The notes beneath the pieces are model-generated. The model made no database searches. It was not told where the DNA came from and was given only the letters and a program-made list of their open reading frames with translations. The position numbers and the translations under genes are program-made. A DNA stretch of 35,971 nt from Nitrospinota bacterium (GTDB taxonomy: Bacteria; Nitrospinota; Nitrospinia; UBA9942), in NCBI GenBank assembly GCA_016200365.1, contig JACQEW010000070.1, positions 1 through 35,971 on the forward strand, in the 5' to 3' direction. This document shows positions 2,920-35,342 of this stretch, in pieces (position 1 is the stretch's first letter; each line of letters opens with the position of its first letter).

Positions 2920-3003
2920 ATTGAGAAGGAATTCTCAAAAGGGACCCTCAATAAGGGTAAACTTACTTTCAAGAAAATTCCTTCGGATAAAATGATTCCT
3001 TCC

Positions 3004-3456
3004 TCATCCAATTATGACAGCATCCTCTATTAATTTGACATCGTATGTAATAAGAGGTTTTGGCGCTGGACCGGCAATAACATTTCCGTTAAGGTCGAAG
3101 ACGGCGCCGTGGCAGGGGCAGACTACCCGTTTTTGCCCCTCGCTCCAGTTGACAATACAACTCAGGTGCGTGCATATTGCAGACAGGGCATATATCTTTC
3201 CCCCGCTGTTAACGACTATAGCAGCCTTTCCTCTGAGAACTATCTTTTTGGCATTCCCCTCTGTTATTTCTGAAAATGGGATCCTGACCTTTTCTTCCCC
3301 GGTTGAGGCTATAGTTTTCCCGGTGGGCCAAAGGTACCTTAATCCTATAAAACCGAGTCCTATACCTACAACTAATGTCCAGATACCTATGATTCCATTT
3401 AAAGTATCTAAAAGAAATTCCCTTCTAACCATTTTTATTCGTACCATTTGTAACAA
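3004..3456 (-). CDS. Rieske [2Fe-2S] protein with a Tat-like signal anchor
   Basis: Rieske boxes CTHLSC and CPCHGAVF. The N-terminus has an RREFLL twin-arginine-like motif followed by a TM helix. The codon at 3456 is TTG; ATG alternatives are at 3447 and 3432. Confidence 0.9.
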   Translation of the reverse strand: MLQMVRIKMVRREFLLDTLNGIIGIWTLVVGIGLGFIGLRYLWPTGKTIASTGEEKVRIPFSEITEGNAKKIVLRGKAAIVVNSGGKIYALSAICTHLSCIVNWSEGQKRVVCPCHGAVFDLNGNVIAGPAPKPLITYDVKLIEDAVIIG

Positions 3457-22740: not shown

Positions 22741-22878
22741 ATCCTGAATCATATTTGCAATCTCCATACCAAAACCATTTTACAAAAAATCTTCCCTTTT
22801 GGGAATAAAAATAAATTATTATTTGTTTATTTATAAAAGGGTATATTATCCCTTTGTTTGCCTCCTTCCCCCAATGAC

Positions 22879-22908
22879 TGCTGCCCTTTCTAAAATGGAA
22901 GGGCAGCA
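22879..22908. promoter_or_regulatory. Inverted repeat TGCTGCCCTT-N10-AAGGGCAGCA in a divergent control region
   Basis: Perfect 10-bp arms lying about 45 bp upstream of the candidate -10 box of the plus-strand cluster. Confidence 0.35.
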
Positions 22909-22949
22909 GAAATAAAAACCTCTCCCATTTTATATTTTTTTAAGATTTC

Positions 22950-22958
22950 TGCTATAAT
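22950..22958 (+). promoter_or_regulatory. Extended -10 promoter element (TGcTATAAT)
   Basis: TG at 22950-22951 and TATAAT at 22953-22958, about 28 nt upstream of the ATG at 22986. The -35 is weak (TTATAT). Confidence 0.4.
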
Positions 22959-23508
22959 ACAAAAATCTAAGAGGAGGAAACCTTAATGAAAAAAACAGTT
23001 ATAATTTTCACAGGTATATTTTTGATGCTGATTCTGGGGGTTACGCTGGTTATAGCCGTCCCAAACAGCCTCAGCAGAAAAATAAGCGATGGTATAAAGG
23101 CGAGGGGCTATATGGAGTATTCGCCGGATGATGCAAAGAGGCTGGCAATGCAGATATGCACCCAATGCCATGACACCGAAAGGATCGCCAAATACTGCCA
23201 CAGATGCGGTCCCCCCTTTATAGCCGTAATTCCTCACATGAAGAAATTCATTGCGGATTATAAAATGAAAGATTCATATAAAGAGCTGTCGGATGTTACA
23301 GATTATCAGGCGGCTGCCATAATCCAGACATGGAATGCGCTGGTAGGAAACTGGGAGGCTGATTTCAGAAAGCAGGATCTGGTAAAGCTGATAGGAGACA
23401 ATAAGAGCCTGCTTGAGCTCCTTAACACCCCTATCGAAAAAAGAAAAATAGAATATGCCCTTAGAACGAGAGGAGATAAGGTAACAGGAGCATATCAAGC
23501 GGGACATC

Positions 23509-24186
<678 letters not shown>

Positions 24187-24234
24187 AAGTCTGTCTTCTG
24201 TCATCTGTCTTCTGTCATCTGTCTTCTGACTTTT

Positions 24235-24919
24235 ATGACTATTTTCGAGGCATATACAGGCGGACTTCATAATTTTTTTTCCATCTGGTTTTTCTGTCTA
24301 TTTCAGGTAACTCCCTTCTTCATAGCTTATCTCACAGGATTAACAATGATGGAGATAGGGGACAGAAATTGGAGACAGGGGGTGCCGGGAATATTGACCG
24401 GCAGTATACTATGCCTGATAGGATTCATGTCAGGATATATACTTCTTGGCTCAACATCTTTATCCATCAGCAGCACACTTTTTCGCTATTTATATGTTCT
24501 GAATCAGATGGGCGGCGTAATACTGCTCATAACAGGACTTTACTTTACAGGATTATTCCGTCTGCCCGAGCATACGGGAAATATGTACAGGAGACATATA
24601 GGACTTTTAACGGGACTCTCCTTTGCTTTTGCCTACCAGCCCTGCGTAACACCAACCTTAACCTCCATCTATAACATGACAAAAAATCCCGATACGGTGT
24701 CAAGAGGCACTCTCCTGCTCGGCTTTTATTCGCTCGGAATAGCCACAGCTTTTTTATCCGTTGGTCTTTTAATCTCAAGCCTGCTTTCTGCCGACAAAAT
24801 AAGAGGCATTAGAAGAATAATACGATATGTAAGCGGAGTGGTAATTATTATTATGTCAATCCTCATACTGGCAAACTGGATGACCATATATAAAAGTTAT
24901 CTGGTGGGGTGGGCGGTGC

Positions 24920-24930
<11 letters not shown>
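24235..24930 (+). CDS. ccdA: CcdA/DsbD-family thiol:disulfide electron-transfer membrane protein
   Basis: Six hydrophobic helices. Conserved Cys in TM1 (FFCLFQVTPFF) and in the PC..P box (YQPCVTPTL). Confidence 0.8.
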
Positions 24931-25774
<844 letters not shown>

Positions 25775-25853
25775 AAAATATTCACAATTAATCCTGTCAA
25801 GTTCTTAATTTTCTTTGTGTTCTTTGTGTCTTTGTGGTGAATTATGTTTTTAA

Positions 25854-26291
25854 ATGAAAATAAAGATATTCCTTCTATCCTTAGCCATTGTGAGCATCTT
25901 TTCGCTGATAAAGTATGTCTTCTATCAGTCAGCCGGCACTGATAGTGTGATGGGAATCTCTCACAATCTCGCCTGTCCATGCGAATGCCCTATGGTTCTC
26001 GAAGACTGCCACATGAGCTGCGGGATGGAATGGAAAGATATGATAGGACAGAGGCTGATGGCAGGCGGAAACAGGGACGATATTGAAGGGTATTTCTTTA
26101 AACGGTTCGGGAAAGAGGCGATGCTTACGCCTCTCCAGAGGATAAGCGGAAAATGGTATCAAATCACGAGGGGCGGTTATCCTTTGAGCGATATTATCCT
26201 TTTTTCGGCAATACTGCTTGTATGGTCAGGTGTGCTGTATTTTATAATAAGCGGGACAATTGATTTTCTAAAAAAGAGAATAAAAACTTGA
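25854..26291 (+). CDS. CcmH/NrfF-like protein with an atypical CPCEC motif
   Basis: N-terminal signal anchor. LACPCECPMVLEDC...IGQRLMAGGNRDDIEGYFFKRFGKEAMLTP follows the CcmH layout (LRCPxC ... G ... I ... RYG ... P), and a TM helix follows. Confidence 0.55.
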   Translation: MKIKIFLLSLAIVSIFSLIKYVFYQSAGTDSVMGISHNLACPCECPMVLEDCHMSCGMEWKDMIGQRLMAGGNRDDIEGYFFKRFGKEAMLTPLQRISGKWYQITRGGYPLSDIILFSAILLVWSGVLYFIISGTIDFLKKRIKT

Positions 26292-26391
26292 TTTTACCGC
26301 AGAGATGCAGAGGCACAGAGAAAAATATAAATATTTTAAAAAGATTTTAATATCTCTGCGTCTCCGCGCCTCTGCGGTTTATAATTTCCTT
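26282..26391. repeat. About 110-bp repeat element, copy 2 (hairpin 26296-26378 plus conserved flanks)
   Basis: Same orientation and near-identical arms and flanks as 11564-11674. Confidence 0.85.
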
Positions 26392-26394
26392 GAC

Positions 26395-27189
26395 ATGAAA
26401 ATTTTAAAATTTACAATAGGTTTAATTTTACCCTTTGCAATTTTCAATATTCAATCTGCAATATCATTAGAACCTCCATTTCCACCAGACGGTATGGCTC
26501 TTGTGCCTGCCGGGGAGTTCATAATGGGCAGTAACAGGAACGAGATTGAAAAAGCTGTTAAGGATGCCGGCGGAAAAAAGGAGTGGTTTTTCGATGAAGA
26601 GCCGAAAAGGAAGGTAAACATCCCTTCTTTTTATATTGATATATACGAGGTAACAAACGAGGACTATAAAAAATTTGACCCAAACCACAGCTTCCCCTCT
26701 GATAGGGCAAAACATCCTGTAGTCAATATAACATGGAATAAGGCAAACGATTACTGTAAATGGGCAGGCAAAAGCCTGCCGACAGAGGAGGAATGGGAAA
26801 AGGCTGCAAGAGGGACAGATGAAAGGATTTATCCATGGGGAAATGAATTTGATAAACACTTAAATAATTCCTATGAATCCGGACTTGGAGGCGGTACAAG
26901 AGTTGGGCAGTTTGCTTTAGAAACATCAGGGGCCGCTGGTTTTGGAGGGACAACTGAGGTAGGGACATACAAAGATGGAAAGAGTCCTTACGGTGTATAC
27001 GATATGGCGGGAAATGTCTGGGAGTGGACAGATAACTGGTATAATAAAGAGAGAAATCTTAAGGTTATTAAAGGCGGGTCATGGCAGAGCCCTTCAATAA
27101 GCACAAGGAGCGCTGCGAGACTCGGCGAAAATCCTAACATGGAATCCAATGATTACGGATTCAGGTGTGCAAAGGACTACAAAAATTAG
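26395..27189 (+). CDS. Exported FGE-sulfatase family protein, paralog 3
   Basis: ATG at 26395 gives the signal peptide MKILKFTIGLILPFAIFNIQSA. YEVTNEDYKKF, GKSLPTEEEWEKAARGTDERIYPWGN, GNVWEWT, KGGSW, GFRCAK. The track start 26305 lies inside the hairpin. Confidence 0.85.
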   Translation: MKILKFTIGLILPFAIFNIQSAISLEPPFPPDGMALVPAGEFIMGSNRNEIEKAVKDAGGKKEWFFDEEPKRKVNIPSFYIDIYEVTNEDYKKFDPNHSFPSDRAKHPVVNITWNKANDYCKWAGKSLPTEEEWEKAARGTDERIYPWGNEFDKHLNNSYESGLGGGTRVGQFALETSGAAGFGGTTEVGTYKDGKSPYGVYDMAGNVWEWTDNWYNKERNLKVIKGGSWQSPSISTRSAARLGENPNMESNDYGFRCAKDYKN

Positions 27190-27219
27190 AAGTCAGAAGC
27201 CAGAAGTCAGAAGTCAGAA
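27188..27219. repeat. Four and a half AGAAGTC-type heptads (single arm)
   Basis: Counted directly. I found no complementary arm nearby. The repeat overlaps the stop codon of paralog 3. Confidence 0.75.
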
Positions 27220-27233
27220 TAAAACAATATTTA

Positions 27234-28055
27234 ATGAAACCTTTCAAGAAAATATTAATCACCTCGATTATAATCCTCGCCATCTCCATACCGGCTGTTT
27301 TCCTCGTAAAATCCGAAGGCTCTGGTATCAAGGATGACATTGATTACCTCTACAGTTTAACAAGGCTTCTTATGTTCAGATATTCCGTGATAGACAAATT
27401 AAGCGAAAAAGAGGCAGCGGTTTTATATCAGCAAAAATGCTACCGCAAGTGTCATGGTGAAGAAGTCATACGGGCAGCAGTATTGCCTCCTGCCGGCTGG
27501 ATACAAGTAGTGGATAAGATGAGGATGGAGAAAGGTGTGAAGATGTCGGGCAAGGAAGTAGATGTCATAACAAATTACCTGAAAGAGACCTATCCTGTCC
27601 TGCAATCCACATTGCCTTACAAGATTGTAAAACAGATACACCGCCTCCTATGGAGAAACGACATAGGGTACGGAGATGTATATGCGGATATTATTTATGC
27701 CACACCTCAATACCTTAAATCCATAAGCGCTCCCGAATTAATAAAAAAATATGATGCCGAAAACAATATGGTGTTCATAATAAGCCTTAATGTCCATGAC
27801 GGCAGGCTCGAGCATTATTCCCTTGACGAGATGACATTTTTAAGGGTAAATAATAAAGAATACCCTGCAAATAAGGGATGGGAATTGAGATTTGAGACAG
27901 GCGACAATCATCACAGGGAGGGTATCGTAAAATTCAAAAAAGATATAATTACCGAAAATGCAGAATACTTTGAATTAATCATCAGAAACATGGCTGTCCA
28001 TCACGACAGGGTTTTCAGATGGGATTTGCCGATTGTGTATCCGGAGGGAATATGA
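27234..28055 (+). CDS. Signal-anchored protein with a CX3CH motif (possible atypical heme site)
   Basis: ATG at 27234 (MKPFKKILITSIIILAISIPAVF). KCYRKCHGEEVIRAAVLPPAGW resembles the CTQCHDTERIAKYCHRCGPP region of 22986..23540. I recognise nothing in the C-terminal 170 aa. Confidence 0.7.
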   Translation: MKPFKKILITSIIILAISIPAVFLVKSEGSGIKDDIDYLYSLTRLLMFRYSVIDKLSEKEAAVLYQQKCYRKCHGEEVIRAAVLPPAGWIQVVDKMRMEKGVKMSGKEVDVITNYLKETYPVLQSTLPYKIVKQIHRLLWRNDIGYGDVYADIIYATPQYLKSISAPELIKKYDAENNMVFIISLNVHDGRLEHYSLDEMTFLRVNNKEYPANKGWELRFETGDNHHREGIVKFKKDIITENAEYFELIIRNMAVHHDRVFRWDLPIVYPEGI

Positions 28056-28651
28056 TTAAATTTTCAATTTCCAATTTCCAATTTCCAATTTTATATCTAA
28101 AATCTAAAATTCAAAATTTGGTAGCCGCAGGCTTCAGCCTGCGTAATTCACTCACCCTAAAGGGTGCGGCTGCCTTATTCCTTTTGTTTCTTATAGTCAT
28201 AAGCTGCAGCAGCCCCGAATCAACTTCAACTAAACCCCAAACTTCAAAACCTGCGTCTGATTTTGCATTAAAAGACATCACAGGCAAAGAAGTAAAACTG
28301 GGCAGTCTCAAAGGGAAGGCGGTGATGGTCAATTTCTGGGCAACATGGTGTTATCCGTGCAGGGAGGAGATACCCGACCTCCAGAAAAGTTACGAAGAAA
28401 ATAAAGATAAGGGATTTATAATCCTCGGAGTCAATATAAAAGAGAACGAATCGAAGGTATCGAAGTTTGCAGAAGATTATAAGATAACCTATCCTGTCCT
28501 CCTCGATATTGACGGCTCTGTCAGTAATAAATATCAGGTATTCGGAGTCCCAATGAGCTTCTTCATAGATAAAAACGGCATTATAAAAGACAGCTTCGTA
28601 GGCATGATGACGAAAGAGGATATAGCAAAGAGGCTGGAGGCTATACTTTAG
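28052..28651 (+). CDS. TlpA/ResA-like thiol:disulfide oxidoreductase lipoprotein (canonical WCYPC)
   Basis: NFWATWCYPCREEIP, YQVFGVPMSFFID, lipobox LIVISC. The ATG at 28052 has a GGAGGG RBS and an ATGA overlap with the upstream stop. Confidence 0.85.
   Translation: MIKFSISNFQFPILYLKSKIQNLVAAGFSLRNSLTLKGAAALFLLFLIVISCSSPESTSTKPQTSKPASDFALKDITGKEVKLGSLKGKAVMVNFWATWCYPCREEIPDLQKSYEENKDKGFIILGVNIKENESKVSKFAEDYKITYPVLLDIDGSVSNKYQVFGVPMSFFIDKNGIIKDSFVGMMTKEDIAKRLEAIL
28064..28091. repeat. About four TTTCCAA heptads (complement of TTGGAAA), translated as ISNFQFPI
   Basis: Read directly. They lie inside the 5' end of the TlpA-like lipoprotein gene. Confidence 0.75.
28120..28173. repeat. Multi-stem element, copy 1 (GTAGCCGCAGGC-TTCA-GCCTGCG ... 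CACCC-TAAA-GGGTG-CGGCTGC)
   Basis: Two small hairpins are enclosed by outer GTAGCCG/CGGCT(A/G)C pairing. The second copy is at 35357-35445. Here the element is translated as VAAGFSLRNSLTLKGAA. Confidence 0.75.
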
Positions 28652-28776: not shown

Positions 28777-29787
28777 CTATTGCTTCCTGAAGGTAATTTG
28801 ATACTTCAGTTCCTTCTGAGCGGCAAGCCATTCAAGTGGTTTTCCGTCAACCTCTGCGTATGGATACATAAAGCCATAAGGTATTGGACCACCCTTTTGG
28901 GGAGGACTGAGGCAATAGCCTTTAGTCCCTCTTGTTAAGGCAATTCTATATTCATCCACTGCACCGAAATAGTAATCGCGATACTTCCGCGCTTGCTCTA
29001 AGTCCAGTTTCTCTGTGAGCATTGCCTTTCTTACATCAGCAGGGTCAACAGGAATCCAGCCATAATTTGGGAGGTAAAACTCCGTCCAACAGTGGTGACC
29101 GCCTGTAATGTCCTCTCCATCCTTTTTGCCGAGCCTCAGACCATAGACTTCTCTCGACGGAACTCCGGCAGCCCTTGCAACAGCCACAAATACACCGCTG
29201 ATGTCGGCGCATTTGCCGCCCTTTTCCGACAGTATCCTCTCGACATCGCCTGTTCCGCACCCCTTGATATTCGGATCTCTGAATGTATTTTCGACAGTCC
29301 AGTCATAAACAGCCTTTGCCTTTTCGATGATGCTCTTTTTACCATCGGTGATGCTTGATGCTATCTCCTTCACCTTTCCATCAATCGGAGTAAAGGGAGA
29401 GCCTTTTAGATATTCTCCGACCTCAGCAGGAATATCGGGTTCCTGAGATTGAAAATCCTTCCTGACCCTTTCTATACTCTTCGCTTGAAAGGTAAGCGTA
29501 AGAAATCTTTCCTTTGCAGGCTTTGTCCATTCTGCATAGAGGGCGAGGTCTCCTTCTTCCTTCTGGGGATAAACTTTGCTAAAAGAAAAATTGCCGTAAA
29601 TTTTTATATCCTCTATTGTCTGCTCGCCATCTGTTTTGGGATAGGGAAGCCAGAGCCTTACATCTTTGCTCTCTTCAGGCGCATCAATAGTTACTTTAAA
29701 AATAACCTCTCCCTGCGCCTCTATTGTATAGGAGATACCGAAAAGAAAAGGCAATACCATCATTCCCAAAAAAATCCTTTTAAACAT
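28777..29787 (-). CDS. Exported transglutaminase-like cysteine protease-fold protein
   Basis: Signal peptide. The transglutaminase core is GGKCADISGVFVAVARAAGVPSR ... GHHCWTEFYLPNYGWIPVDPAD (Cys/His/Asp). GGAGG RBS. Confidence 0.85.
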   Translation of the reverse strand: MFKRIFLGMMVLPFLFGISYTIEAQGEVIFKVTIDAPEESKDVRLWLPYPKTDGEQTIEDIKIYGNFSFSKVYPQKEEGDLALYAEWTKPAKERFLTLTFQAKSIERVRKDFQSQEPDIPAEVGEYLKGSPFTPIDGKVKEIASSITDGKKSIIEKAKAVYDWTVENTFRDPNIKGCGTGDVERILSEKGGKCADISGVFVAVARAAGVPSREVYGLRLGKKDGEDITGGHHCWTEFYLPNYGWIPVDPADVRKAMLTEKLDLEQARKYRDYYFGAVDEYRIALTRGTKGYCLSPPQKGGPIPYGFMYPYAEVDGKPLEWLAAQKELKYQITFRKQ

Positions 29788-29809
29788 AAATTACCTCCGT
29801 AATAATTTC

Positions 29810-30703
29810 TTATTCAAAAAATGTCCCAGACTCGATATTCTTTTGAATTTGGTTTATATATCCTTCCCCATATTTCATGAAGCGAATCATCTCATCCCCG
29901 CCGAGGTCGGAGACCATAGAGTAGCCCATATTCCCCTCCCTCCAGAAAAGCACATTGAATCCCTTAAATGTTTCGATAAATATCTCTTTGTCCCCCTCTT
30001 TTATTATTCTCCCTTCAGGGAGTTTCAGGTTGTTTATGTCGAATATGAAAAGGGATAATTTATGCCCGTTTTTATCGAAGGCAATGTATGCAACCCTCCT
30101 CTCCTTTAGATAACGGAGGTTTACCTGCGGCGAGCCTATGCCCTGCCATGACAGTCCCGGCACCTCAAACTCCCTTGACAACTCGGTGCTGCCGGACGGC
30201 ATCTGCCCGTCAAATATATCCACAATAGTATTGTTGAGATGATTATTAACGGATTTTACGGCAATCGGCGATGCAGAGACCCTATCGGAGAAATAATACA
30301 TAGGCACGATAACCAATAAAACAAGCGCGGCAACAGCAGAGGCAGTATAGACATGCTTTAAGGTAAACCCCGTTAGAAAGGACGGGGCTTTAACCTCGCT
30401 TTTTCTATAAGGAATCGAAATTTCTAACGGGGTAAAGGGGAAAAATCTCTCTATAAAGCTTTCTTTTCTTTCTCTTTCTTCTATCAAGCCGATTATTCTA
30501 TTTTTTAAATAGAATGGCGATTTTTCTTTCTCTGCTTCTCCTGATAGTGATTTCGAGAGCTTTACAATCTCAAGCTCCTTCCTGCATCTCTCGCACCCGG
30601 CAATATGGTTTTTGACCCTGTCAGCCTTCCGACCCTTTAACTCCCCGTCCAAAATTGCGCTGATATATTGATTTACAGACTTACAATCGGTTTTAAAAAA
30701 CAT
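29810..30703 (-). CDS. Anti-sigma factor (zf-HC2) with one TM helix and a periplasmic domain
   Basis: HIAGCERCRKELE fits the H-x3-C-x2-C motif. TM helix ASAVAALVLLVIVPMYYF. It lies in the ECF sigma operon. AAGGAG RBS. Confidence 0.8.
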   Translation of the reverse strand: MFFKTDCKSVNQYISAILDGELKGRKADRVKNHIAGCERCRKELEIVKLSKSLSGEAEKEKSPFYLKNRIIGLIEERERKESFIERFFPFTPLEISIPYRKSEVKAPSFLTGFTLKHVYTASAVAALVLLVIVPMYYFSDRVSASPIAVKSVNNHLNNTIVDIFDGQMPSGSTELSREFEVPGLSWQGIGSPQVNLRYLKERRVAYIAFDKNGHKLSLFIFDINNLKLPEGRIIKEGDKEIFIETFKGFNVLFWREGNMGYSMVSDLGGDEMIRFMKYGEGYINQIQKNIESGTFFE

Positions 30704-30732
30704 AAATATCTCCTTAACCGCCTATTCGGTTT

Positions 30733-30757
30733 CGGCAAAAAATGTCATTTTTTGCCG
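30733..30757. promoter_or_regulatory. Perfect 25-bp palindrome CGGCAAAAAATG-T-CATTTTTTGCCG
   Basis: Read directly. It lies between the cytochrome c'-like stop and the anti-sigma start, and shares its core with 21282-21304. Confidence 0.4.
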
Positions 30758-30767
30758 CACTATTCGC

Positions 30768-31247
30768 TCAGTGCCTGAATTTTTCATGGCAGATATTGCA
30801 GCTTTCAATCAGAGGAGAAAGATCCGCAAGCGCCTTGTCTCTGTTTCCAGCCATGGCATCGGCGGATAGTTCGTCCGCTTTTGTGTGCATTGCCTTGCCG
30901 ACGGTTAAAAAATCTTTACCTGCCTCCCCCGCAGACTCGCCGAATATAGAACACATTTTTTCCTCCGACTCATTCCATCCAAGGTTTCCCTTTGCAATTT
31001 TAGCGGCTTTTTCCAGTTCGTTTGCCGCAAGGGCAGCGGTAATCTTGCCTAACGCATCCAGATGCCCCCTCATTATGCTTTTATGCATCGCCTTCATAGA
31101 CTCCGCCATTTTCAGTTCTATTCGCGTATCGGATTTATGTCCTCCCTCTTTCATCATCGTCTCGTGCATATGAGAATGATCCGACGCAAATGAAACGGCT
31201 GCCGCAAAAATACCGGTTACTGCCGTAACTAACATTGTTTTTTTCAT
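30768..31247 (-). CDS. Exported class II (cytochrome c'/c556-like) four-helix-bundle cytochrome
   Basis: Signal peptide, helical Ala/Lys/Met-rich sequence, and a single CXXCH at the extreme C-terminus (CNICHEKFRH), as in class II cytochromes. GGAGGGGG RBS. Confidence 0.7.
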   Translation of the reverse strand: MKKTMLVTAVTGIFAAAVSFASDHSHMHETMMKEGGHKSDTRIELKMAESMKAMHKSIMRGHLDALGKITAALAANELEKAAKIAKGNLGWNESEEKMCSIFGESAGEAGKDFLTVGKAMHTKADELSADAMAGNRDKALADLSPLIESCNICHEKFRH

Positions 31248-31272
31248 TTTAACCCCCTCCTTTTTTTAAAAG

Positions 31273-31364
31273 CTGCAAGTTGCAATTTGCAAACTGCAAG
31301 CAAAACCCAAAATCCGATTTAGGATTTTTGACCCAAATCCAGATTTTCTAAATCGGGATTTGGG
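31273..31364. repeat. TTGCAA-type heptads followed by the imperfect inverted repeat CCCAAAATCCGATTTAG / CTAAATCGGGATTTGGG
   Basis: Heptads CTGCAAG TTGCAAT TTGCAAA CTGCAAG at 31273-31300. The inverted-repeat arms 31306-31322 and 31348-31364 match at 15 of 17 positions. The element sits directly after the ECF sigma stop. Confidence 0.65.
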
Positions 31365-31366
31365 CT

Positions 31367-31915
31367 TCATAAATATCCTCTCTTCTTTGCATATTCCGTC
31401 AGGTTTTTGTAGAGGAGCTTCCTGCCCCTGTGCAGTCTCGACATTATCGTTCCTTCGGGGCATTTCAAAATATCGGCTATCTCCCGATAAGAAAACCCCT
31501 CTACATCGGACAAGAGGATAACATCCCTGAACTCCTCCGGAAGCGCATCGAGAGACGCCTTGACCTCATCATCCAGAACATCCTTTGAAAGGGCATCGGA
31601 TATATCGCCTTGCAATATCGGGCTGCCGCTTTCTATAACCTGCCCGATAAATTGCTCAACGCTGTGAAAATCTACGCTCTCCGGCTCTTTTTTCTTTTTC
31701 CTGTATATATTTATAAAGGTGTTTCTCAATATACTGAAGAGCCATGCCTTTATATAGGTATCTTTTTTATACTTATGAAAAAACTTATAAGCCCTTAAAT
31801 ATGTCTCCTGAACCAGATCCTCTGACTCACCTGCATCCCCTGTTAATTTAAGGGCGAAATTAAAAAGAGAATCAATGTGCGGGAGGGCTGTCTCCTCAAA
31901 CTCCTTTTTTTTCAC
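31367..31915 (-). CDS. ECF (sigma-70 family, group IV) sigma factor
   Basis: Region 2 reads DLVQETYLRAYKFF and region 4 reads YREIADILKCPEGTIMSRLHRGRKLL. GTG start at 31915. Confidence 0.9.
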   Translation of the reverse strand: MKKKEFEETALPHIDSLFNFALKLTGDAGESEDLVQETYLRAYKFFHKYKKDTYIKAWLFSILRNTFINIYRKKKKEPESVDFHSVEQFIGQVIESGSPILQGDISDALSKDVLDDEVKASLDALPEEFRDVILLSDVEGFSYREIADILKCPEGTIMSRLHRGRKLLYKNLTEYAKKRGYL

Positions 31916-32163
31916 CTATCCCCTCATGAATATAAAAAACAAATATTTTATAAAAATTATTCCCATCAGGATATTTTTTTAAGATATAATAACACATATC
32001 TTACAGCTTCGACAGATTACATGCCATTTCTCTCTCTCATAAGGAGGTATGGTGAGTAAAGCGACCAAGCCCTTTTGCTTTTTTAGAAAGGAGGTGCAAT
32101 AGAAGAAAGTTAAGAGTTAAGAATTAAGAGTTAATAGTTAATAGCAAAAGGAGGAGATTTTAA

Positions 32164-33537
32164 ATGAAAAATATCTGCAAGTTATTCGGAAAAACCCTTA
32201 TTATTTTAACCCTTTTACTTTTTGGCTCTGCCGAGGCAGCGGTCATATCCGTCCCTTTGCAGTTTAAGAGCATTCAGGAGGCGGTTAATGCTGCATCTTC
32301 GGGTGATACGGTTCAGGTCTCTGCCGGCGTCTATAAAGAGCAAATCAAATTGAAGACGGGCGTAACAGTAAAAGGCGAAGGGTATGAAAAGACGACAATA
32401 GACGGCAGCAAGAAGGACGGCAGCGTAGTTGTCGGGGCAAGCGATGCCGTAATCGAAGGATTTACCATTAGGAACAGCGGTATCAGGGGCAGGCAGGGCG
32501 ATGCCATGGACGCAGGCATAAAGATAGACAGCGCTGCTATGGCGGTATTGAACAACAGGATTATAAATAACAATGCAGGCATCCTGTCATTTCACGGCTC
32601 GACCTCGCTCATTGCAAATAATATAATAGAGGAGAATGAGAATTTCGGCATCTATCTCATCTATTCAAACCCACTCATCGAAAACAATATCGTGTATCGA
32701 AACAAGGTTCGCGGTATCTTCTGCGCCTATTCAAAGCCTGAAATAGTGAATAATACCATCGTTGCCAACCCGACCGGTATATACACTGAAGTATCGAGCT
32801 CTGTAATTAAAAATAATATTATTACAGATTCCGATGCTATTGGGTTTCAGATAGCGGAATCGCCGAGGGACCAGAAGGGCGTAGAGCCTTATTTATCTTA
32901 CAATGTCTTTTATAATAATGGACATGACCTTTCCAATGTGGAGAAAGGGGAAGGCGATATTACGAAAGATCCATTATTTGCAGATGGAGCAAAAAGGGAT
33001 TTCAGGTTAAAACCGAATTCCCCTGCGGCAAATGCCGGCGACCCTGATCCAAAATATAATGACCCTGATAGAAGCAGGGCAGATGCAGGCGCTTTCGGGG
33101 GTTCCCATGCAGCCGGCAAGGAAAAAAGCAGGAACTGGACAGCTTTTAAAAAATCAAAAGAAGGTGAGGCTGTTGCAATAGAGAAGAACTATATGACAGC
33201 CCGCAGCCTCAGCGAGAAAGGGTCAAAGGGCTATAAAGAGGAAAATACCAGGGTCAACTATTACAGCTACTGCGCCCCTTGTCATGGACAGACAGGAAAA
33301 GGTGACGGCCCCCTTGCAGAAAGTCTGGAGCAGGGAGTTGTGCCTCGAGATCATACGAGTGCGGAATATTTTTCCCAAAAGACAGATGATGAGATTTTTG
33401 AAGTGATAAAACACGGCGGTGTAAAGGCGGGATTCAGCGAGACAATGCCGCCCTTTGACGGACAGATTTCCGATGACGCTATGAGAGACCTTGTAAAATT
33501 CATAAGGGAGCTCTGCAATTGTCAGTATAAGAAGTAA
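32164..33537 (+). CDS. Exported right-handed parallel beta-helix (NosD/CASH-like) protein fused to a C-terminal monoheme cytochrome c domain
   Basis: Signal peptide. Repeated beta-helix rungs (ITIRNSGIRG, IINNNAGILSF, IIEENENFGIYLIYS, IVYRNKVRGIFCAYS, TIVANPTGIYTE). The C-terminus has YCAPCHGQTGKGDGP ... TMPPF. AGGAGG RBS. Confidence 0.85.
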   Translation: MKNICKLFGKTLIILTLLLFGSAEAAVISVPLQFKSIQEAVNAASSGDTVQVSAGVYKEQIKLKTGVTVKGEGYEKTTIDGSKKDGSVVVGASDAVIEGFTIRNSGIRGRQGDAMDAGIKIDSAAMAVLNNRIINNNAGILSFHGSTSLIANNIIEENENFGIYLIYSNPLIENNIVYRNKVRGIFCAYSKPEIVNNTIVANPTGIYTEVSSSVIKNNIITDSDAIGFQIAESPRDQKGVEPYLSYNVFYNNGHDLSNVEKGEGDITKDPLFADGAKRDFRLKPNSPAANAGDPDPKYNDPDRSRADAGAFGGSHAAGKEKSRNWTAFKKSKEGEAVAIEKNYMTARSLSEKGSKGYKEENTRVNYYSYCAPCHGQTGKGDGPLAESLEQGVVPRDHTSAEYFSQKTDDEIFEVIKHGGVKAGFSETMPPFDGQISDDAMRDLVKFIRELCNCQYKK

Positions 33538-33600: not shown

Positions 33601-34041
33601 TTAGGAAGTCTCAATCTCGTTTTTATCTTTTCTGTGAGGGTAAAGTGCATCTATCGTTGATTTAACGGCGAGCTTAGCCTGCTGATTTATCCCTCTGAAT
33701 ATAGCAAGGAGTTTTTCGATATACTTTTGTTCTAAATCCGTAATTACACCTTTACCAGCCTTGTATTTTGAAGGAAATTCGGCAATTCGACTGGTCTGCA
33801 TCTTTTTGACCCCAGAGATCTCGTTAATCTTAAGGAGCAATTCATCTCTAAACAATTCTCCTAATCTATCCTCAAGAAATGTCTGCCGATTTTTACCTAT
33901 TCCCTTTCTTCCCTTTAAGGTGTCATTTAGGTCAGAGGGGGCCCAACCCAGCATCTGTGCCAGCCCATTCTGATTGATGCCTTTCTTTTCCATATAAGCA
34001 AAAAGGGCTTCAACAATTGCTCTTTCCATGAGGGTATTCAT
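33601..34041 (-). CDS. XRE-like helix-turn-helix protein
   Basis: KKGINQNGLAQMLGWAPSDLNDTLKGRKGIG resembles an HTH_3 motif. The gene is divergent from the caspase-like gene. Confidence 0.6.
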   Translation of the reverse strand: MNTLMERAIVEALFAYMEKKGINQNGLAQMLGWAPSDLNDTLKGRKGIGKNRQTFLEDRLGELFRDELLLKINEISGVKKMQTSRIAEFPSKYKAGKGVITDLEQKYIEKLLAIFRGINQQAKLAVKSTIDALYPHRKDKNEIETS

Positions 34042-34132: not shown

Positions 34133-34163
34133 TATGAAAACTTTATTTATGGAGGTGATTGTT

Positions 34164-35342
34164 ATGAAGGCAAATAAAATATCCTCTATCTTATTCTTCT
34201 TTTTCCTCATCACTCATTGCTCATTACTCATTGCTTTTTTCACCGGCTGTTCCTCCGACCCAAAAAAGCTCACCAAATTACAACTCATAGAATCGGGACT
34301 CTTTCGTAACTATCAAAAAGAAGAACTGCTAACACCCTTTAAAAAGACAGATGTCATCTACACACAGGACACACAAGCAGTCATGTGGATAAAACTAAAA
34401 GACATAGAAGGGAATCATACACTAAGATGGGACTGGCTCTCCCCTGACAAAAACATCTATTTCAAGACACAGGACTTTGAAATAAACCTCGATTCAAAGA
34501 AGCACAATCTAAATACATCAGTCCATAGAATCGGCATAAGAGGAGAGAGGGCAGAAAAACTAACAGGAGAATGGCAGGTCAATGTCTATCTGGATAACTA
34601 TCTTATAGCCTCCAGACACTTTAACCTATTACCCGGCATAGGAGACATAGACTCATACATAACAAAGGGTCCTGAAATTAGAATAAAACAGGACAAAACA
34701 AAATGGGCTGTCCTCATAGGAATAGAGAAATATAGAAACACTACACCAGCAACATACTCCTCACATGATGCCGTCCTAATGAAAGAATACCTCAGTAAAT
34801 TCGCAGGAGTCCCTGACGAAAATATCTTTCTAATGACAGATGACAAAGCAACCAAAAGTGAGATTGAGATGCTCATGCAGGACAGAATAAAAAAGCTCGT
34901 AAAAGAAGGAGACACACTCTATTTCTACTATGCAGGACACGGTATTCCTGATGTAGGAGACCAGACCCCATATATCCTCCCCTCGGACGGCAACCCGGAT
35001 AACCCAAGGATGAGTGGTTATCCATTAGAAAGACTCTACAAAGACCTCACAGACCTCAAGGCAAAGAATATCTATCTATTTATAGATGCCTGTTTTTCGG
35101 GTATGAGCGGCAGAGAGCAGAAAGATACCATGCTATTAGCAGGTCGTCCGGGGACACTCATAGTCAAAGACCCTGTCATAGCATCAGAAAAAATCGCCCT
35201 GCTTGCAGCATCGAGAGAGAACCAAATCAGCAACTTCTATAAAGAAGAAGAACATGGATTATTCACATACTATTTACTTAAAGGGATGATAGGAGAAGCT
35301 GACATAAATAGAGATAATAAGATTAACCCAAATAATGCGTGA
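34164..35342 (+). CDS. Caspase-like (peptidase C14) lipoprotein
   Basis: The ATG at 34164 has a GGAGGTG RBS. Lipobox-like FFTGC. The catalytic dyad context is YFYYAGHG and LFIDACFSG. The track start is 34134. Confidence 0.85.
   Translation: MKANKISSILFFFFLITHCSLLIAFFTGCSSDPKKLTKLQLIESGLFRNYQKEELLTPFKKTDVIYTQDTQAVMWIKLKDIEGNHTLRWDWLSPDKNIYFKTQDFEINLDSKKHNLNTSVHRIGIRGERAEKLTGEWQVNVYLDNYLIASRHFNLLPGIGDIDSYITKGPEIRIKQDKTKWAVLIGIEKYRNTTPATYSSHDAVLMKEYLSKFAGVPDENIFLMTDDKATKSEIEMLMQDRIKKLVKEGDTLYFYYAGHGIPDVGDQTPYILPSDGNPDNPRMSGYPLERLYKDLTDLKAKNIYLFIDACFSGMSGREQKDTMLLAGRPGTLIVKDPVIASEKIALLAASRENQISNFYKEEEHGLFTYYLLKGMIGEADINRDNKINPNNA

What the first reader, a model, noticed from the sequence alone, without database searches (positions are those of the whole stretch)
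28777..31915. An ECF sigma operon has a cytochrome c'-like heme protein inserted between sigma and anti-sigma, followed by an exported transglutaminase-like protein
Minus-strand order: ECF sigma (31367..31915), an exported class II cytochrome with a C-terminal CNICHEKFRH (30768..31247), a zf-HC2 anti-sigma factor with a periplasmic domain (29810..30703), and an exported transglutaminase-core protein (28777..29787). Cytochromes c' are known to bind NO and CO. A periplasmic heme protein encoded between sigma and anti-sigma suggests a heme-based gas or redox input to an ECF switch. The transglutaminase-fold Cys/His/Asp enzyme could be either an output or the protease acting on the anti-sigma factor. 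The junctions carry repeats (31273-31364) and a perfect palindrome (30733-30757).
Basis: inference. Interest (0 to 1): 0.6.

Follow-up and report, generated by a model that had tools for sequence, protein, structure and literature searches.

The report
Cytochrome gene inserted into stress-sigma operon
A groundwater bacterium carries an ordinary stress-response switch (a sigma factor, its membrane inhibitor and an exported enzyme), and in this one genome a small heme-protein gene has landed between the sigma factor and its inhibitor, more likely as a passenger under the switch's control than as its sensor.

Summary
The four minus-strand genes, the junction repeats and the palindrome are all real. 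The sigma factor is closest to SigH/SigR. The anti-sigma has a complete RsrA-type zinc motif, one membrane helix and a conserved periplasmic domain. The 159-aa protein is a divergent cytochrome c'-like class II cytochrome. The last protein has an intact Cys-His-Asp transglutaminase core.

The core locus (divergent cytochrome c, sigma, anti-sigma, transglutaminase-like gene) recurs in 5 relatives and 12 metagenome contigs. None of the 16 comparable loci has the cytochrome. Sigma and anti-sigma usually lie 23-43 nt apart. One relative carries a PstS-like binding-protein gene at the same junction.

None of 30 loci of the cytochrome family lies within two genes of a sigma or anti-sigma factor. The window's copy groups with copies from other phyla.

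A GGGAAT-N18-GTT promoter precedes sigma in 6 of 6 loci. It also precedes a neighbouring periplasmic thiol-redox/cytochrome-maturation operon in 5 of 6 loci.

My reading: this is an autoregulated ECF12/26-like envelope-redox switch with exported cargo genes. The cytochrome is a lineage-specific, probably co-transcribed addition. A heme-sensor input is not supported but not excluded.

The parts
31938..31964 (-). Candidate ECF promoter GGGAAT-N18-GTT with an all-A/T spacer, 22 nt upstream of the sigma GTG start
   Evidence: Found at 20-22 nt from the start codon in 6 of 6 orthologous loci, across two genera whose spacer sequences differ. It matches the GGAAT/GTT motif (ECF12) and the GGAATAAA/GTT motif (ECF26) described in the supplement of PMC7826278.
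31367..31915 (-). ECF sigma factor, 182 aa, SigH/SigR-like
   Evidence: Pfam r2 plus r4_2. Best NCBIfam hit is TIGR02947 SigH_actino at 184 bits, below its 251.55 cut-off. Best solved homologue is M. tuberculosis SigH, E 4e-41, 144 bits; the next unengineered solved chains score about 80 bits.
31248..31366 (-). Sigma-cytochrome spacer: a long imperfect hairpin, a period-7 array, then the RBS AGGAGGGGG
   Evidence: Fold of -38.4 kcal/mol. TRF row at 31270-31300. No sigma-70-like promoter or terminator-like site on the minus strand here.
30768..31247 (-). Exported class II (cytochrome c'-like) cytochrome c, 159 aa; an insertion specific to this genome
   Evidence: PF01322 at 27.5 bits against a 26.5 cut-off. 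The family profile matches solved cytochromes c' at E 6e-6. AF2 model with pLDDT 86.5, helical bundle. Best Foldseek matches are cytochrome c' and b562, at a weak E of 0.12. Absent from all 16 comparable loci.
30733..30757 (-). Perfect 11-bp-stem palindrome between the cytochrome and anti-sigma genes, with no T-run after it
   Evidence: By eye, about half of the 14 homologue loci inspected have a GC-rich hairpin plus T-run after the cytochrome gene; this one does not.
29810..30703 (-). Single-pass ZAS anti-sigma factor, 297 aa: N-terminal zinc domain, TM helix at about 118-140, periplasmic domain at about 142-297
   Evidence: zf-HC2 at 37.9 bits. RsrA model at 39 bits, below its 62.5 cut-off. 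C7, H33, C37 and C40 are invariant in 14 sequences. ESM Atlas look-alikes are zf-HC2 anti-sigma clusters with DUF4367 or MucB_RseB, TM 0.60-0.67 (a lead only).
30363..30439 (-). In-frame palindromic repeat element inside the anti-sigma linker; it adds 23 residues found in no homologue
   Evidence: The insertion appears only in the window's row of 14. It has 13-bp terminal inverted repeats and partial copies at 8 other places in the genome. Depth reaches 689 in run X2, with loose ends at both edges.
28777..29787 (-). Exported transglutaminase-like protein, 336 aa, with a Cys193-His232-Asp248 triad
   Evidence: Transglut_core at 91 bits. The triad is invariant in 9 orthologues and paralogues. 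The gene follows the anti-sigma in 5 of 5 relatives and in 10 of 10 metagenome loci long enough to show it.
32164..33537 (+). Divergent neighbour: a beta-helix (NosD-like) protein fused to a class I cytochrome c domain
   Evidence: Pfam. At least the cytochrome c part lies divergent to sigma in 5 of 5 relatives and in 10 of 11 metagenome loci holding sigma (the eleventh starts 194 nt before sigma).
22801..22827 (+). Second GGGAAT-N18-GTT site with an all-A/T spacer, 158 nt upstream of the neighbouring operon
   Evidence: The motif block is kept in 5 of 6 orthologous upstream regions (G000, G003, G005, G006, G007; not G010, which is in another family), while the flanks diverge between genera.
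22986..28651 (+). Eight-gene operon of periplasmic thiol-redox and cytochrome-maturation-like genes, convergent with the sigma operon; candidate regulon
   Evidence: Two AhpC-TSA/Redoxin (TlpA-like) proteins, a CcmH-like protein, an FGE-sulfatase protein, a weak DsbD_TM match at 18 bits (below cut-off), and two proteins with CxxCH motifs.

Best explanation
The locus is a family-level conserved ECF switch of uncultured Nitrospinota. It has an autoregulated SigH/SigR-like sigma factor, held by a single-pass anti-sigma factor. That anti-sigma has a complete RsrA-type zinc site in the cytoplasm and a highly conserved DUF4367/RseB-like domain in the periplasm. The operon also carries exported 'cargo' genes that the sigma factor switches on. 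The conserved cargo is one or two transglutaminase-like Cys-His-Asp enzymes. In this genome alone, a cytochrome c'-like class II cytochrome gene, probably acquired horizontally, has been inserted just after the sigma stop codon. It has lost or never had its own terminator and is read through from the sigma promoter into the anti-sigma gene. A second conserved copy of the promoter motif suggests that the same sigma also drives the neighbouring operon of periplasmic thioredoxin-like and cytochrome-maturation-like proteins. The system's theme would then be periplasmic thiol or heme-protein homeostasis. Shown here: gene identities, conservation of the core, absence of the cytochrome elsewhere, the promoter footprints, and the read-supported junctions. 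Inferred: co-transcription, the regulon, the signal sensed, and release of sigma by proteolysis or zinc-site oxidation.
For: Core locus conserved. Sigma, anti-sigma and transglutaminase-like genes occur in this order in 5 relatives (G001, G003, G005, G006, G007). In 12 metagenome loci, 11 hold sigma next to anti-sigma and 10 reach the transglutaminase-like gene. The sigma/anti-sigma gap is 23-43 nt in 13 of these 16 loci. It is 178 nt, repeat-filled, in G001 and L099, and about 860 nt in G003, where the gap holds a PBP_like_2 gene.

Cytochrome absent elsewhere. It is absent at this junction in 0 of 16 loci. Its family sits elsewhere: 0 of 105 genes flanking 30 loci are sigma, zf-HC2 or Transglut_core. 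Instead, 10 of 30 loci have a Tll0287-like gene directly upstream and 3 of 30 have a second Cytochrom_C_2 gene.

Origin of the cytochrome. In the tree, the window's copy nests among copies from MAGs labelled Deltaproteobacteria, not with those labelled Nitrospinota. The AU test rejects a single Nitrospinota clade, p 0.00027.

Promoter. The motif is present in 6 of 6 sigma loci and 5 of 6 upstream regions of the redox operon. It matches published ECF12 and ECF26 motifs.

Co-transcription. No promoter-like or terminator-like site lies on the coding strand in either spacer. By eye, about half of the 14 homologue loci inspected have a GC-rich hairpin plus T-run after the cytochrome gene; the window does not. 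G001 tolerates a 178-nt repeat-rich spacer between sigma and anti-sigma.

Precedent. ECF26 SigE of Starkeya novella drives sorAB, which encodes a sulfite:cytochrome c oxidoreductase, at +2 and +3 (supplement of PMC7826278).

Distribution. The transglutaminase-like family is far wider (at least 5807 proteins, 60% identity across phyla) than the anti-sigma sensor domain (23 proteins).
Against: There are no RNA data, so co-transcription and the regulon are inferred. The sigma-cytochrome spacer forms a very stable hairpin (-38 kcal/mol) that could attenuate or process the transcript. The loose motif GGGAAT-N18-GTT is not enriched genome-wide (28 found, 23 expected from composition), so the regulon claim rests on conservation at two sites only. 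The four g3 genomes are close kin, so the counts of 6 of 6 and 5 of 6 amount to roughly two independent lineages. The cytochrome gene's GC (0.469) and GC3 (0.481) do not stand out from its neighbours, so a transfer, if real, is not recent. The AU-test group was named after I saw the tree. Insertion between sigma and anti-sigma, rather than downstream, has happened twice with periplasmic ligand-binding proteins. A pure passenger model does not explain this.
Confidence: 0.6

Rival explanations
1. The cytochrome is a newly recruited periplasmic co-sensor. Heme binding of NO, CO or a redox change alters its contact with the anti-sigma periplasmic domain and so sets sigma free.
For: It is encoded exactly between sigma and anti-sigma. 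It is exported to the compartment where the anti-sigma sensor domain lies. Its C-terminal CxxCHxxxR matches cytochromes c', the solved entries of which include NO and CO complexes (PDB titles; alignment). A second periplasmic ligand-binding protein, PstS-like, occupies the same slot in G003, which could mean the slot holds exchangeable sensors.
Against: It is absent from 16 of 16 comparable loci. None of 30 family loci is linked to a sigma or anti-sigma gene. The anti-sigma periplasmic domain is 89% identical to its closest homologues, which have the length of the cytochrome-less relatives' anti-sigma. That leaves no sign of adaptation to a new partner. Conserved Met59, His62 and His121 could supply a sixth heme ligand, which would make it an electron carrier rather than a gas binder. 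That possibility is untested.
Confidence: 0.13
2. The cytochrome gene is a neutral, separately transcribed insertion. It is expressed from its own weak promoter in the spacer or is silent. The anti-sigma gene is then expressed from a promoter inside or after the cytochrome gene.
For: Stable hairpins flank the gene. A weak sigma-70-like match (9 of 12) lies at 30808-30779, inside the 3' end of the cytochrome gene and upstream of the anti-sigma start. The window's copy has a long branch (0.37 against a median of 0.14).
Against: Promoter-like matches in the region equal the shuffle expectation (7 found, 7.0 expected), and none lies in the sigma-cytochrome spacer. The protein keeps all 20 invariant family positions, including CxxCH, and has a strong RBS. 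Uncoupling anti-sigma from sigma expression would be costly for an autoregulated ECF pair (general knowledge).
Confidence: 0.17
3. The transglutaminase-like protein is the site-1 protease, or a covalent modifier, acting on the anti-sigma periplasmic domain. On this view it is part of the signalling path, not an output.
For: It follows the anti-sigma in every locus long enough to show it (15 of 15). It is exported, and its Cys-His-Asp triad is invariant. Some sources label homologues 'transglutaminase-like putative cysteine protease'.
Against: The family is very widespread (at least 5807 proteins) and 60% identical in Gallionellaceae, Mariprofundaceae, Nitrosomonadales and Thiothrix, while the anti-sigma sensor domain has only 23 homologues, all in this clade. 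In G014 a relative of the family stands without sigma or anti-sigma. In G010 the 61%-identical orthologue has none in the 424 nt left upstream on its contig. Two divergent paralogue types (about 35% identity) substitute for each other among the loci.
Confidence: 0.2

Closest known systems
ECF12 SigR/SigH with the RsrA/RshA zinc anti-sigma factors (actinobacterial disulfide-stress switch)
   Same: The sigma factor's best family and best solved homologue are SigH. The promoter is of the GGAAT-N18-GTT type (supplement of PMC7826278). The anti-sigma N-terminus matches the RsrA model and keeps C7, H33, C37 and C40; that this spacing equals RsrA's is my recollection. The candidate regulon encodes thioredoxin-fold proteins.
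   Different: The anti-sigma is membrane-anchored with a 155-aa periplasmic domain, whereas 96% of ECF12 anti-sigma factors are soluble and only subgroup ECF12s19 is transmembrane. The sigma and anti-sigma scores fall below the curated cut-offs. The candidate targets are periplasmic, not cytoplasmic. The host is Nitrospinota, a name with no hit in the held part of that supplement.
ECF26 (for example Starkeya novella SigE with sorAB) and the related ECF206 and ECF207 groups
   Same: These have a one-TM zinc-finger anti-sigma at +1 and an autoregulated GGAATAAA/GTT promoter. Cytochrome-related genes sit in the operon or nearby: sorAB at +2 and +3, and a cytochrome c at -2 of ECF206s2. ECF12, 26, 15, 206 and 207 are described there as phylogenetically close.
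   Different: ECF26 is 99.9% Proteobacteria. No transglutaminase-like gene appears in the context descriptions I could search ('transglut' gave 0 hits in the held text, which is cut). Group HMMs were not available, so membership is untested.
Cytochrome c' (class II cytochromes c, PF01322), for example those of Hydrogenophilus thermoluteolus and Rhodobacter capsulatus
   Same: The heme motif is C-terminal, CxxCHxxFR, and its last residues are identical to the H. thermoluteolus protein's CHEKFR. The predicted fold is a helical bundle whose best structural matches are cytochromes c' and b562. It has an N-terminal export signal by inspection.
   Different: Only the C-terminal half aligns well. The family has a conserved Met/His-rich N-terminal segment (DHxQMHEMMMK) and an extra invariant Cys99, plus M59, H62 and H121. 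The Pfam score barely passes. Foldseek E-values are weak (0.12). The heme's spin and coordination state is unknown.
RseA/RseB-type envelope-stress anti-sigma systems and DUF4367-bearing anti-sigma factors (for example ECF106)
   Same: The anti-sigma is single-pass, and its periplasmic domain has nearest Atlas models carrying DUF4367 or MucB_RseB. ECF106 anti-sigma factors are described with DUF4367.
   Different: The fold assignment is only a lead. My own AF2 model was poor (pLDDT 47), and Pfam finds no domain in residues 142-297.

Membership tests
ECF (group 4) sigma-70 factors | Only the sigma-2 and sigma-4 regions are present, in a protein of about 180-200 aa | tested here: met
   Sigma70_r2 at residues 13-76 and Sigma70_r4_2 at 117-168 in 182 aa. 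TIGR02937 sigma70-ECF scores 92.5 bits against a 42.9 cut-off.
ECF12 (SigR/SigH) | Score above the curated SigH-family cut-off, or assignment by the ECF-group HMMs | tested here: not met
   TIGR02947 scores 184.4 bits against a cut-off of 251.55. It is the best hit by 56 bits, and the best solved homologue is SigH at E 4e-41. The ECF-group HMMs were not available.
ECF12 (SigR/SigH) | A soluble zinc-binding anti-sigma factor at +1 | tested here: not met
   The anti-sigma has a TM helix and a periplasmic domain. In this genome it sits at +2. Only subgroup ECF12s19 is described as transmembrane.
ECF12 / ECF26 | An autoregulatory promoter with GGAAT(AAA) at -35 and GTT at -10 | tested here: met
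   GGGAATAA/T-N16-GTT lies 20-22 nt before the start codon in 6 of 6 loci. Activity was not tested.
ECF26 / ECF206 / ECF207 | A one-TM anti-sigma factor with HxxxCxxC at +1 | tested here: met
   H33-x3-C37-x2-C40 is invariant, and there is one predicted TM helix. It sits at +1 in 15 of 16 comparable loci, at +2 in G003 and at +2 here. Group HMM assignment is not testable with these tools.
ZAS (zinc-binding anti-sigma) domain, PF13490 | Pfam score above the gathering cut-off and the zinc ligands present | tested here: met
   zf-HC2 scores 37.9 bits against 22.2. C7, H33, C37 and C40 are invariant in 14 sequences. Zinc binding and redox sensitivity are not testable here.
Class II cytochrome c / cytochrome c' (PF01322) | A single CxxCH close to the C-terminus | tested here: met
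   C150-N-I-C153-H154, six residues from the end, invariant in 24 sequences.
Class II cytochrome c / cytochrome c' (PF01322) | Sequence membership and an antiparallel four-helix-bundle fold | tested here: met
   Pfam 27.5 bits against 26.5, which is marginal. The family profile matches solved cytochromes c' at E 6.4e-6. AF2 pLDDT is 86.5 with five helices after the signal. Top Foldseek hits are cytochrome c' and b562, but at E 0.12 and TM 0.5-0.6.
Class II cytochrome c / cytochrome c' (PF01322) | Five-coordinate high-spin heme that binds NO or CO | not testable with these tools
   This needs spectra of the expressed protein. Invariant M59, H62 and H121 could supply a sixth ligand.
Transglutaminase-like core (PF01841) | A domain match and an intact Cys-His-Asp triad | tested here: met
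   91.4 bits against 23. C193, H232 and D248 are invariant in 9 orthologues and paralogues. Whether it acts as a protease or a transglutaminase is not testable here.
Dedicated periplasmic co-sensor of an anti-sigma factor (RseB-like role) for the cytochrome | Conserved co-occurrence with the anti-sigma factor across relatives | tested here: not met
   0 of 16 comparable loci carry it. 0 of 30 family loci lie within two genes of a sigma or anti-sigma factor.

The most novel reading that the evidence does not exclude
The position just after the sigma stop codon is a swap slot for exchangeable periplasmic ligand-binding proteins. In this genome it holds a heme protein; in G003 it holds a PstS-like binding protein. 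Each would dock on the conserved DUF4367-like anti-sigma domain and re-tune what the same ECF switch senses, giving a modular way of evolving new inputs.
Probability: 0.08. Interest if true: 0.8.

Novelty: new variant of a known kind. Interest (0 to 1): 0.35.

Why it matters
If the main reading holds, this is an extracytoplasmic counterpart of the SigR/SigH disulfide-stress system. It pairs an ECF12-like sigma with a membrane-spanning zinc anti-sigma, and its conserved promoter footprints point to periplasmic thioredoxin-like and cytochrome-maturation genes. Nitrospinota is a phylum with no characterised ECF system that I know of. The locus also shows how ECF operons pick up cargo. Two different exported-protein genes entered the same sigma/anti-sigma junction in sister lineages. 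Hairpin repeats populate the spacers, and a palindromic repeat element sits in frame inside the anti-sigma gene. For the specific claim of a heme-based gas sensor, the result is a caution: position between sigma and anti-sigma in a single genome is not evidence of a sensory role.

Tried and rejected
1. Complex prediction of the mature cytochrome (residues 23-159) with the anti-sigma periplasmic domain (142-297) plus heme returned 'no answer', score 0.00 in two runs, and the controls were not run. It counts neither for nor against binding.

2. The AF2 model of the whole anti-sigma factor was too poor to search (mean pLDDT 47; periplasmic part 40-64).

3. No RNA run holding the locus was listed, so expression and operon structure could not be examined.

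4. The genome-wide count of GGGAAT-N18-GTT was 28 against 23 expected. I rejected it as a way to define a regulon and used only the two conserved sites. A third AT-rich-spacer site on contig C36, upstream of a 137-aa Cys-rich exported protein, was not checked in relatives.

5. Base composition of the cytochrome gene was not anomalous, so it does not support recent transfer.

6. Full-text search for 'ECF sigma' + 'transglutaminase' + 'anti-sigma' returned 3 papers. Judging from their titles, abstract starts and term counts in the listing only, none concerns such an operon. 'Transglut' had 0 hits in the held, cut supplement of PMC7826278.

7. Earlier notes of this scan had nothing like the anti-sigma sequence or these keywords.

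8. An assembly chimera was rejected as an explanation of the gene order.

9. I dropped 5 of the 35 genome-contig loci (L088-L092), whose matches covered under half of the cytochrome, before the context count. The tree used 25 of the 30 remaining loci (those with full-length matches) plus 13 database proteins.

Full report
OBSERVATION

- Sigma (31367-31915): Pfam finds Sigma70_r2 and r4_2.
- 159-aa protein (30768-31247): Cytochrom_C_2 at 27.5 bits, just over the 26.5 cut-off.
- Anti-sigma (29810-30703): zf-HC2 at residues 7-41 of the 297-aa protein and nothing else.
- Last protein (28777-29787): Transglut_core at 91 bits.

The sigma-cytochrome spacer folds into a long imperfect hairpin plus a period-7 array (-38.4 kcal/mol, z -2.9). 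The palindrome at 30733-30757 is a perfect 11-bp stem.

Contigs from four other runs of one groundwater study bridge both junctions of the cytochrome gene. The order sigma, cytochrome, anti-sigma is therefore not a chimera of one assembly. These runs may include the source sample.

The repeats are not special to this operon. The window gives 58 TRF rows, mostly of period 7 or 8. Earlier notes of this scan describe the same hairpin class elsewhere in the window.

WHAT THE PARTS ARE

Sigma factor. Its best NCBIfam family is SigH_actino (184 bits, below the 251.55 cut-off; next best 128 bits). Its best solved homologue is M. tuberculosis SigH (E 4e-41, 144 bits); the next unengineered solved chains score about 80 bits.

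Anti-sigma factor. It matches the RsrA model weakly (39 bits against a cut-off of 62.5). It keeps C7, H33, C37 and C40 invariant across 14 homologues. It has one predicted TM helix and a 155-aa periplasmic domain. That domain is 75-89% identical among 22 full-length homologues, more conserved than the zinc domain, and was found only in proteins whose sources name Nitrospinae or Nitrospinota. My AF2 model of it was poor (pLDDT 47). The ESM Atlas's nearest models are zf-HC2 anti-sigma clusters carrying DUF4367 or MucB_RseB (TM 0.60-0.67), which I treat as a lead only.

Cytochrome.
- It belongs to a small family: 37 homologues at E <= 0.001.
- Invariant residues are C150, C153, H154, R158, C99, H62, H121, M59 and R60. 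There is also a conserved Met/His-rich N-terminal segment.
- The family profile matches solved cytochromes c' at E 6e-6, with the C-terminal CHEKFR identical to the H. thermoluteolus protein.
- The AF2 model is confident (pLDDT 86.5) and helical.
- Its best PDB matches are cytochromes c' and b562, at weak E-values (0.12; TM 0.5-0.6).

It is therefore a divergent class II, cytochrome c'-like protein. Its heme coordination is unknown.

Transglutaminase-like protein. Its Cys193-His232-Asp248 triad is invariant in nine orthologues and paralogues.

IS THE ARRANGEMENT CONSERVED?

The core is conserved; the cytochrome is not.

Among 40 relatives searched, five carry the orthologous locus: G001 (same genus) and G003, G005, G006 and G007 (same family). 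A scan of metagenome contigs added 12 loci, 11 of which hold sigma next to anti-sigma.

The sigma/anti-sigma gap in these 16 loci is:
- 23-43 nt in 13 loci;
- 178 nt, filled with heptad repeats, in G001 and L099;
- about 860 nt in G003, where it encodes a 278-aa exported PBP_like_2 (PstS-type) protein.

No locus other than the window has a cytochrome c'-like gene there (0 of 16).

The transglutaminase-like gene follows the anti-sigma in all 15 loci long enough to show it. Two paralogue types, about 35% identical, occur together or alone. A class I cytochrome c, alone or fused to a NosD-like beta-helix, is the conserved divergent neighbour.

WHERE THE CYTOCHROME FAMILY NORMALLY LIVES

Three family-level relatives have homologues at 56-61% identity, but on other contigs and in unrelated contexts.

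Across 30 loci from the species-representative genome collection, I examined the 105 called genes within two positions on either side. None is a sigma factor, a zf-HC2 protein or a transglutaminase-like protein. In 10 of 30 loci the gene directly upstream is Tll0287-like (PF11845). In 3 of 30 it is a second Cytochrom_C_2 paralogue.

In a maximum-likelihood tree, the window's copy nests among copies from MAGs labelled Deltaproteobacteria. It does not group with the two full-length copies labelled Nitrospinota. An AU test rejects uniting the three (p 0.00027), with the caveat that I named the group after seeing the tree. Base composition is unremarkable.

The window's genome holds no second PF01322 gene. 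Its three Tll0287-like domains lie in large proteins elsewhere.

The simplest history is a lineage-specific, probably horizontal, insertion.

PROMOTERS AND TRANSCRIPTION

A GGGAAT-N18-GTT motif with an all-A/T spacer lies 20-22 nt before the sigma start codon in 6 of 6 loci. It matches the ECF12 (GGAAT/GTT) and ECF26 (GGAATAAA/GTT) motifs described in the supplement of Casas-Pastor et al. 2021 (PMC7826278; I read passages and part 9 of supplementary file 1, which is cut as stored).

A second copy lies at 22801-22827 (+), 158 nt upstream of an eight-gene operon (22986-28651). That operon encodes:
- two TlpA-like thioredoxin-fold proteins;
- a CcmH-like protein;
- an FGE-sulfatase-domain protein;
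- a weak DsbD_TM-like membrane protein;
- two proteins with CxxCH motifs.

The motif block is kept in 5 of 6 orthologous upstream regions while the flanks diverge between genera.

The loose motif is not enriched genome-wide (28 found, 23 expected), so only these two conserved sites carry weight.

Neither spacer around the cytochrome gene has a promoter-like or terminator-like site on the coding strand. By eye, about half of the 14 homologue loci inspected have a GC-rich hairpin plus T-run after the cytochrome gene; the window does not. I infer read-through from the sigma promoter. No RNA data exist to test this.

MECHANISM

I read the locus as an autoregulated ECF12/26-like switch. The zinc domain of the anti-sigma holds sigma in the cytoplasm. 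The periplasmic domain, and possibly the zinc site itself, receives the signal. On release, sigma drives its own operon and probably the neighbouring periplasmic thiol-redox/cytochrome-maturation operon.

The transglutaminase-like enzyme is best seen as cargo. Its family is vast and 60% identical across phyla (at least 5807 proteins), while the sensor domain is confined to this clade. In G014 a relative of the family stands without sigma or anti-sigma. In G010 the orthologue has none in the 424 nt left upstream on its contig.

The cytochrome is a further cargo gene acquired in this lineage. ECF26 SigE driving sorAB is a precedent for cytochrome-related outputs inside such operons.

What this reading leaves unexplained is why two different periplasmic binding proteins entered precisely the sigma/anti-sigma junction.

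COMPARISON AND NOVELTY

The system works like SigR/RsrA and ECF26-type switches. It fails two ECF12 membership features: the curated score and a soluble anti-sigma. It could not be run against the ECF-group HMMs.

I found no description of a transglutaminase-like gene as conserved ECF context (searches; the supplement text is cut). 'Nitrospinae' had no hit in the held supplement text.

I rate it a new variant of a known kind, of modest interest. The heme-sensor idea remains possible at about one in eight.

ALSO SEEN

The window's anti-sigma gene carries an in-frame palindromic repeat element at 30363-30439. It adds 23 residues to the cytoplasmic linker that are absent from all 13 homologues aligned. 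It has 13-bp terminal inverted repeats and partial copies elsewhere in the genome. It is very abundant in the metagenome runs (depth 689 in X2).

Noticed in passing
window 30363-30439 (minus strand, inside the anti-sigma gene): A palindromic repeat element with 13-bp terminal inverted repeats (ACCCCGTTAGAAA / TTTCTAACGGGGT) is inserted in frame. It adds 23 residues to the linker between the zinc domain and the TM helix. It is absent from 13 homologues, has partial copies at 8 other places in the genome, and reaches depth 689 in one metagenome run.
   Followed up: partly
L055:6558-7394 (minus strand; G003): In one family relative, a 278-aa exported PBP_like_2 (PstS-type) gene sits between sigma and anti-sigma, at the same junction where the window has the cytochrome. 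The sister genome G005 has only a 26-nt gap there.
   Followed up: partly
window 22801-28651 (+): An eight-gene operon of periplasmic thiol-redox and cytochrome-maturation-like genes. Upstream it has a conserved ECF-type motif, a conserved stem-loop and a TGnTATAAT-like element. It lies about 9-11 kb from the sigma gene on the same contig in the window, G003 and G005.
   Followed up: partly
whole window, for example 884-996, 24148-24232, 24935-25031, 32108-32141: There are 58 TRF rows, mostly period-7 or period-8 arrays, often as forward/reverse pairs that form hairpins in intergenic spacers and at gene starts. G001 has different arrays (CACGAAT and ACACAGA types) in its sigma/anti-sigma and anti-sigma/transglutaminase spacers.
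   Followed up: partly
loci L058, L060, L065-L068, L070, L072, L076, L077: In MAGs labelled Deltaproteobacteria, the cytochrome c'-like gene is paired with a Tll0287-like (PF11845) gene directly upstream; glyS is the next gene upstream in 7 of these 10 loci. The family also has a conserved Met/His-rich N-terminal motif (DHxQMHEMMMK) and an extra invariant Cys. In 2 loci a cupredoxin-like gene lies two genes upstream.
   Followed up: no
window 28777-29787 (homologues P0062-P0180): The transglutaminase-like protein belongs to a 336-aa family that is 60-70% identical over its full length in proteins named from Gallionellaceae, Mariprofundaceae, Nitrosomonadales, Thiothrix and Deltaproteobacteria MAGs. 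That is unusually high conservation for a protein of unknown role.
   Followed up: no
G000 contig C36, minus strand, about 2989-3059 (motif), with the gene at 2576-2989: A third GGGAAT-N18-GTT site with an AT-rich spacer lies 43 nt upstream of a 137-aa exported, Cys-rich protein, followed by three more exported-protein genes.
   Followed up: no
window 34134-35342 (+) and 33601-34041 (-): A 402-aa membrane-anchored or exported protein with a caspase (Peptidase_C14) domain lies just beyond the beta-helix-cytochrome c gene. Next to it is a 146-aa protein with no Pfam match.
   Followed up: no
L052:6371-6693 (G001): The same-genus relative has a 325-nt repeat-filled spacer between anti-sigma and the transglutaminase-like gene. 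This is the place where genus g3 genomes carry a second, divergent transglutaminase-like paralogue.
   Followed up: no
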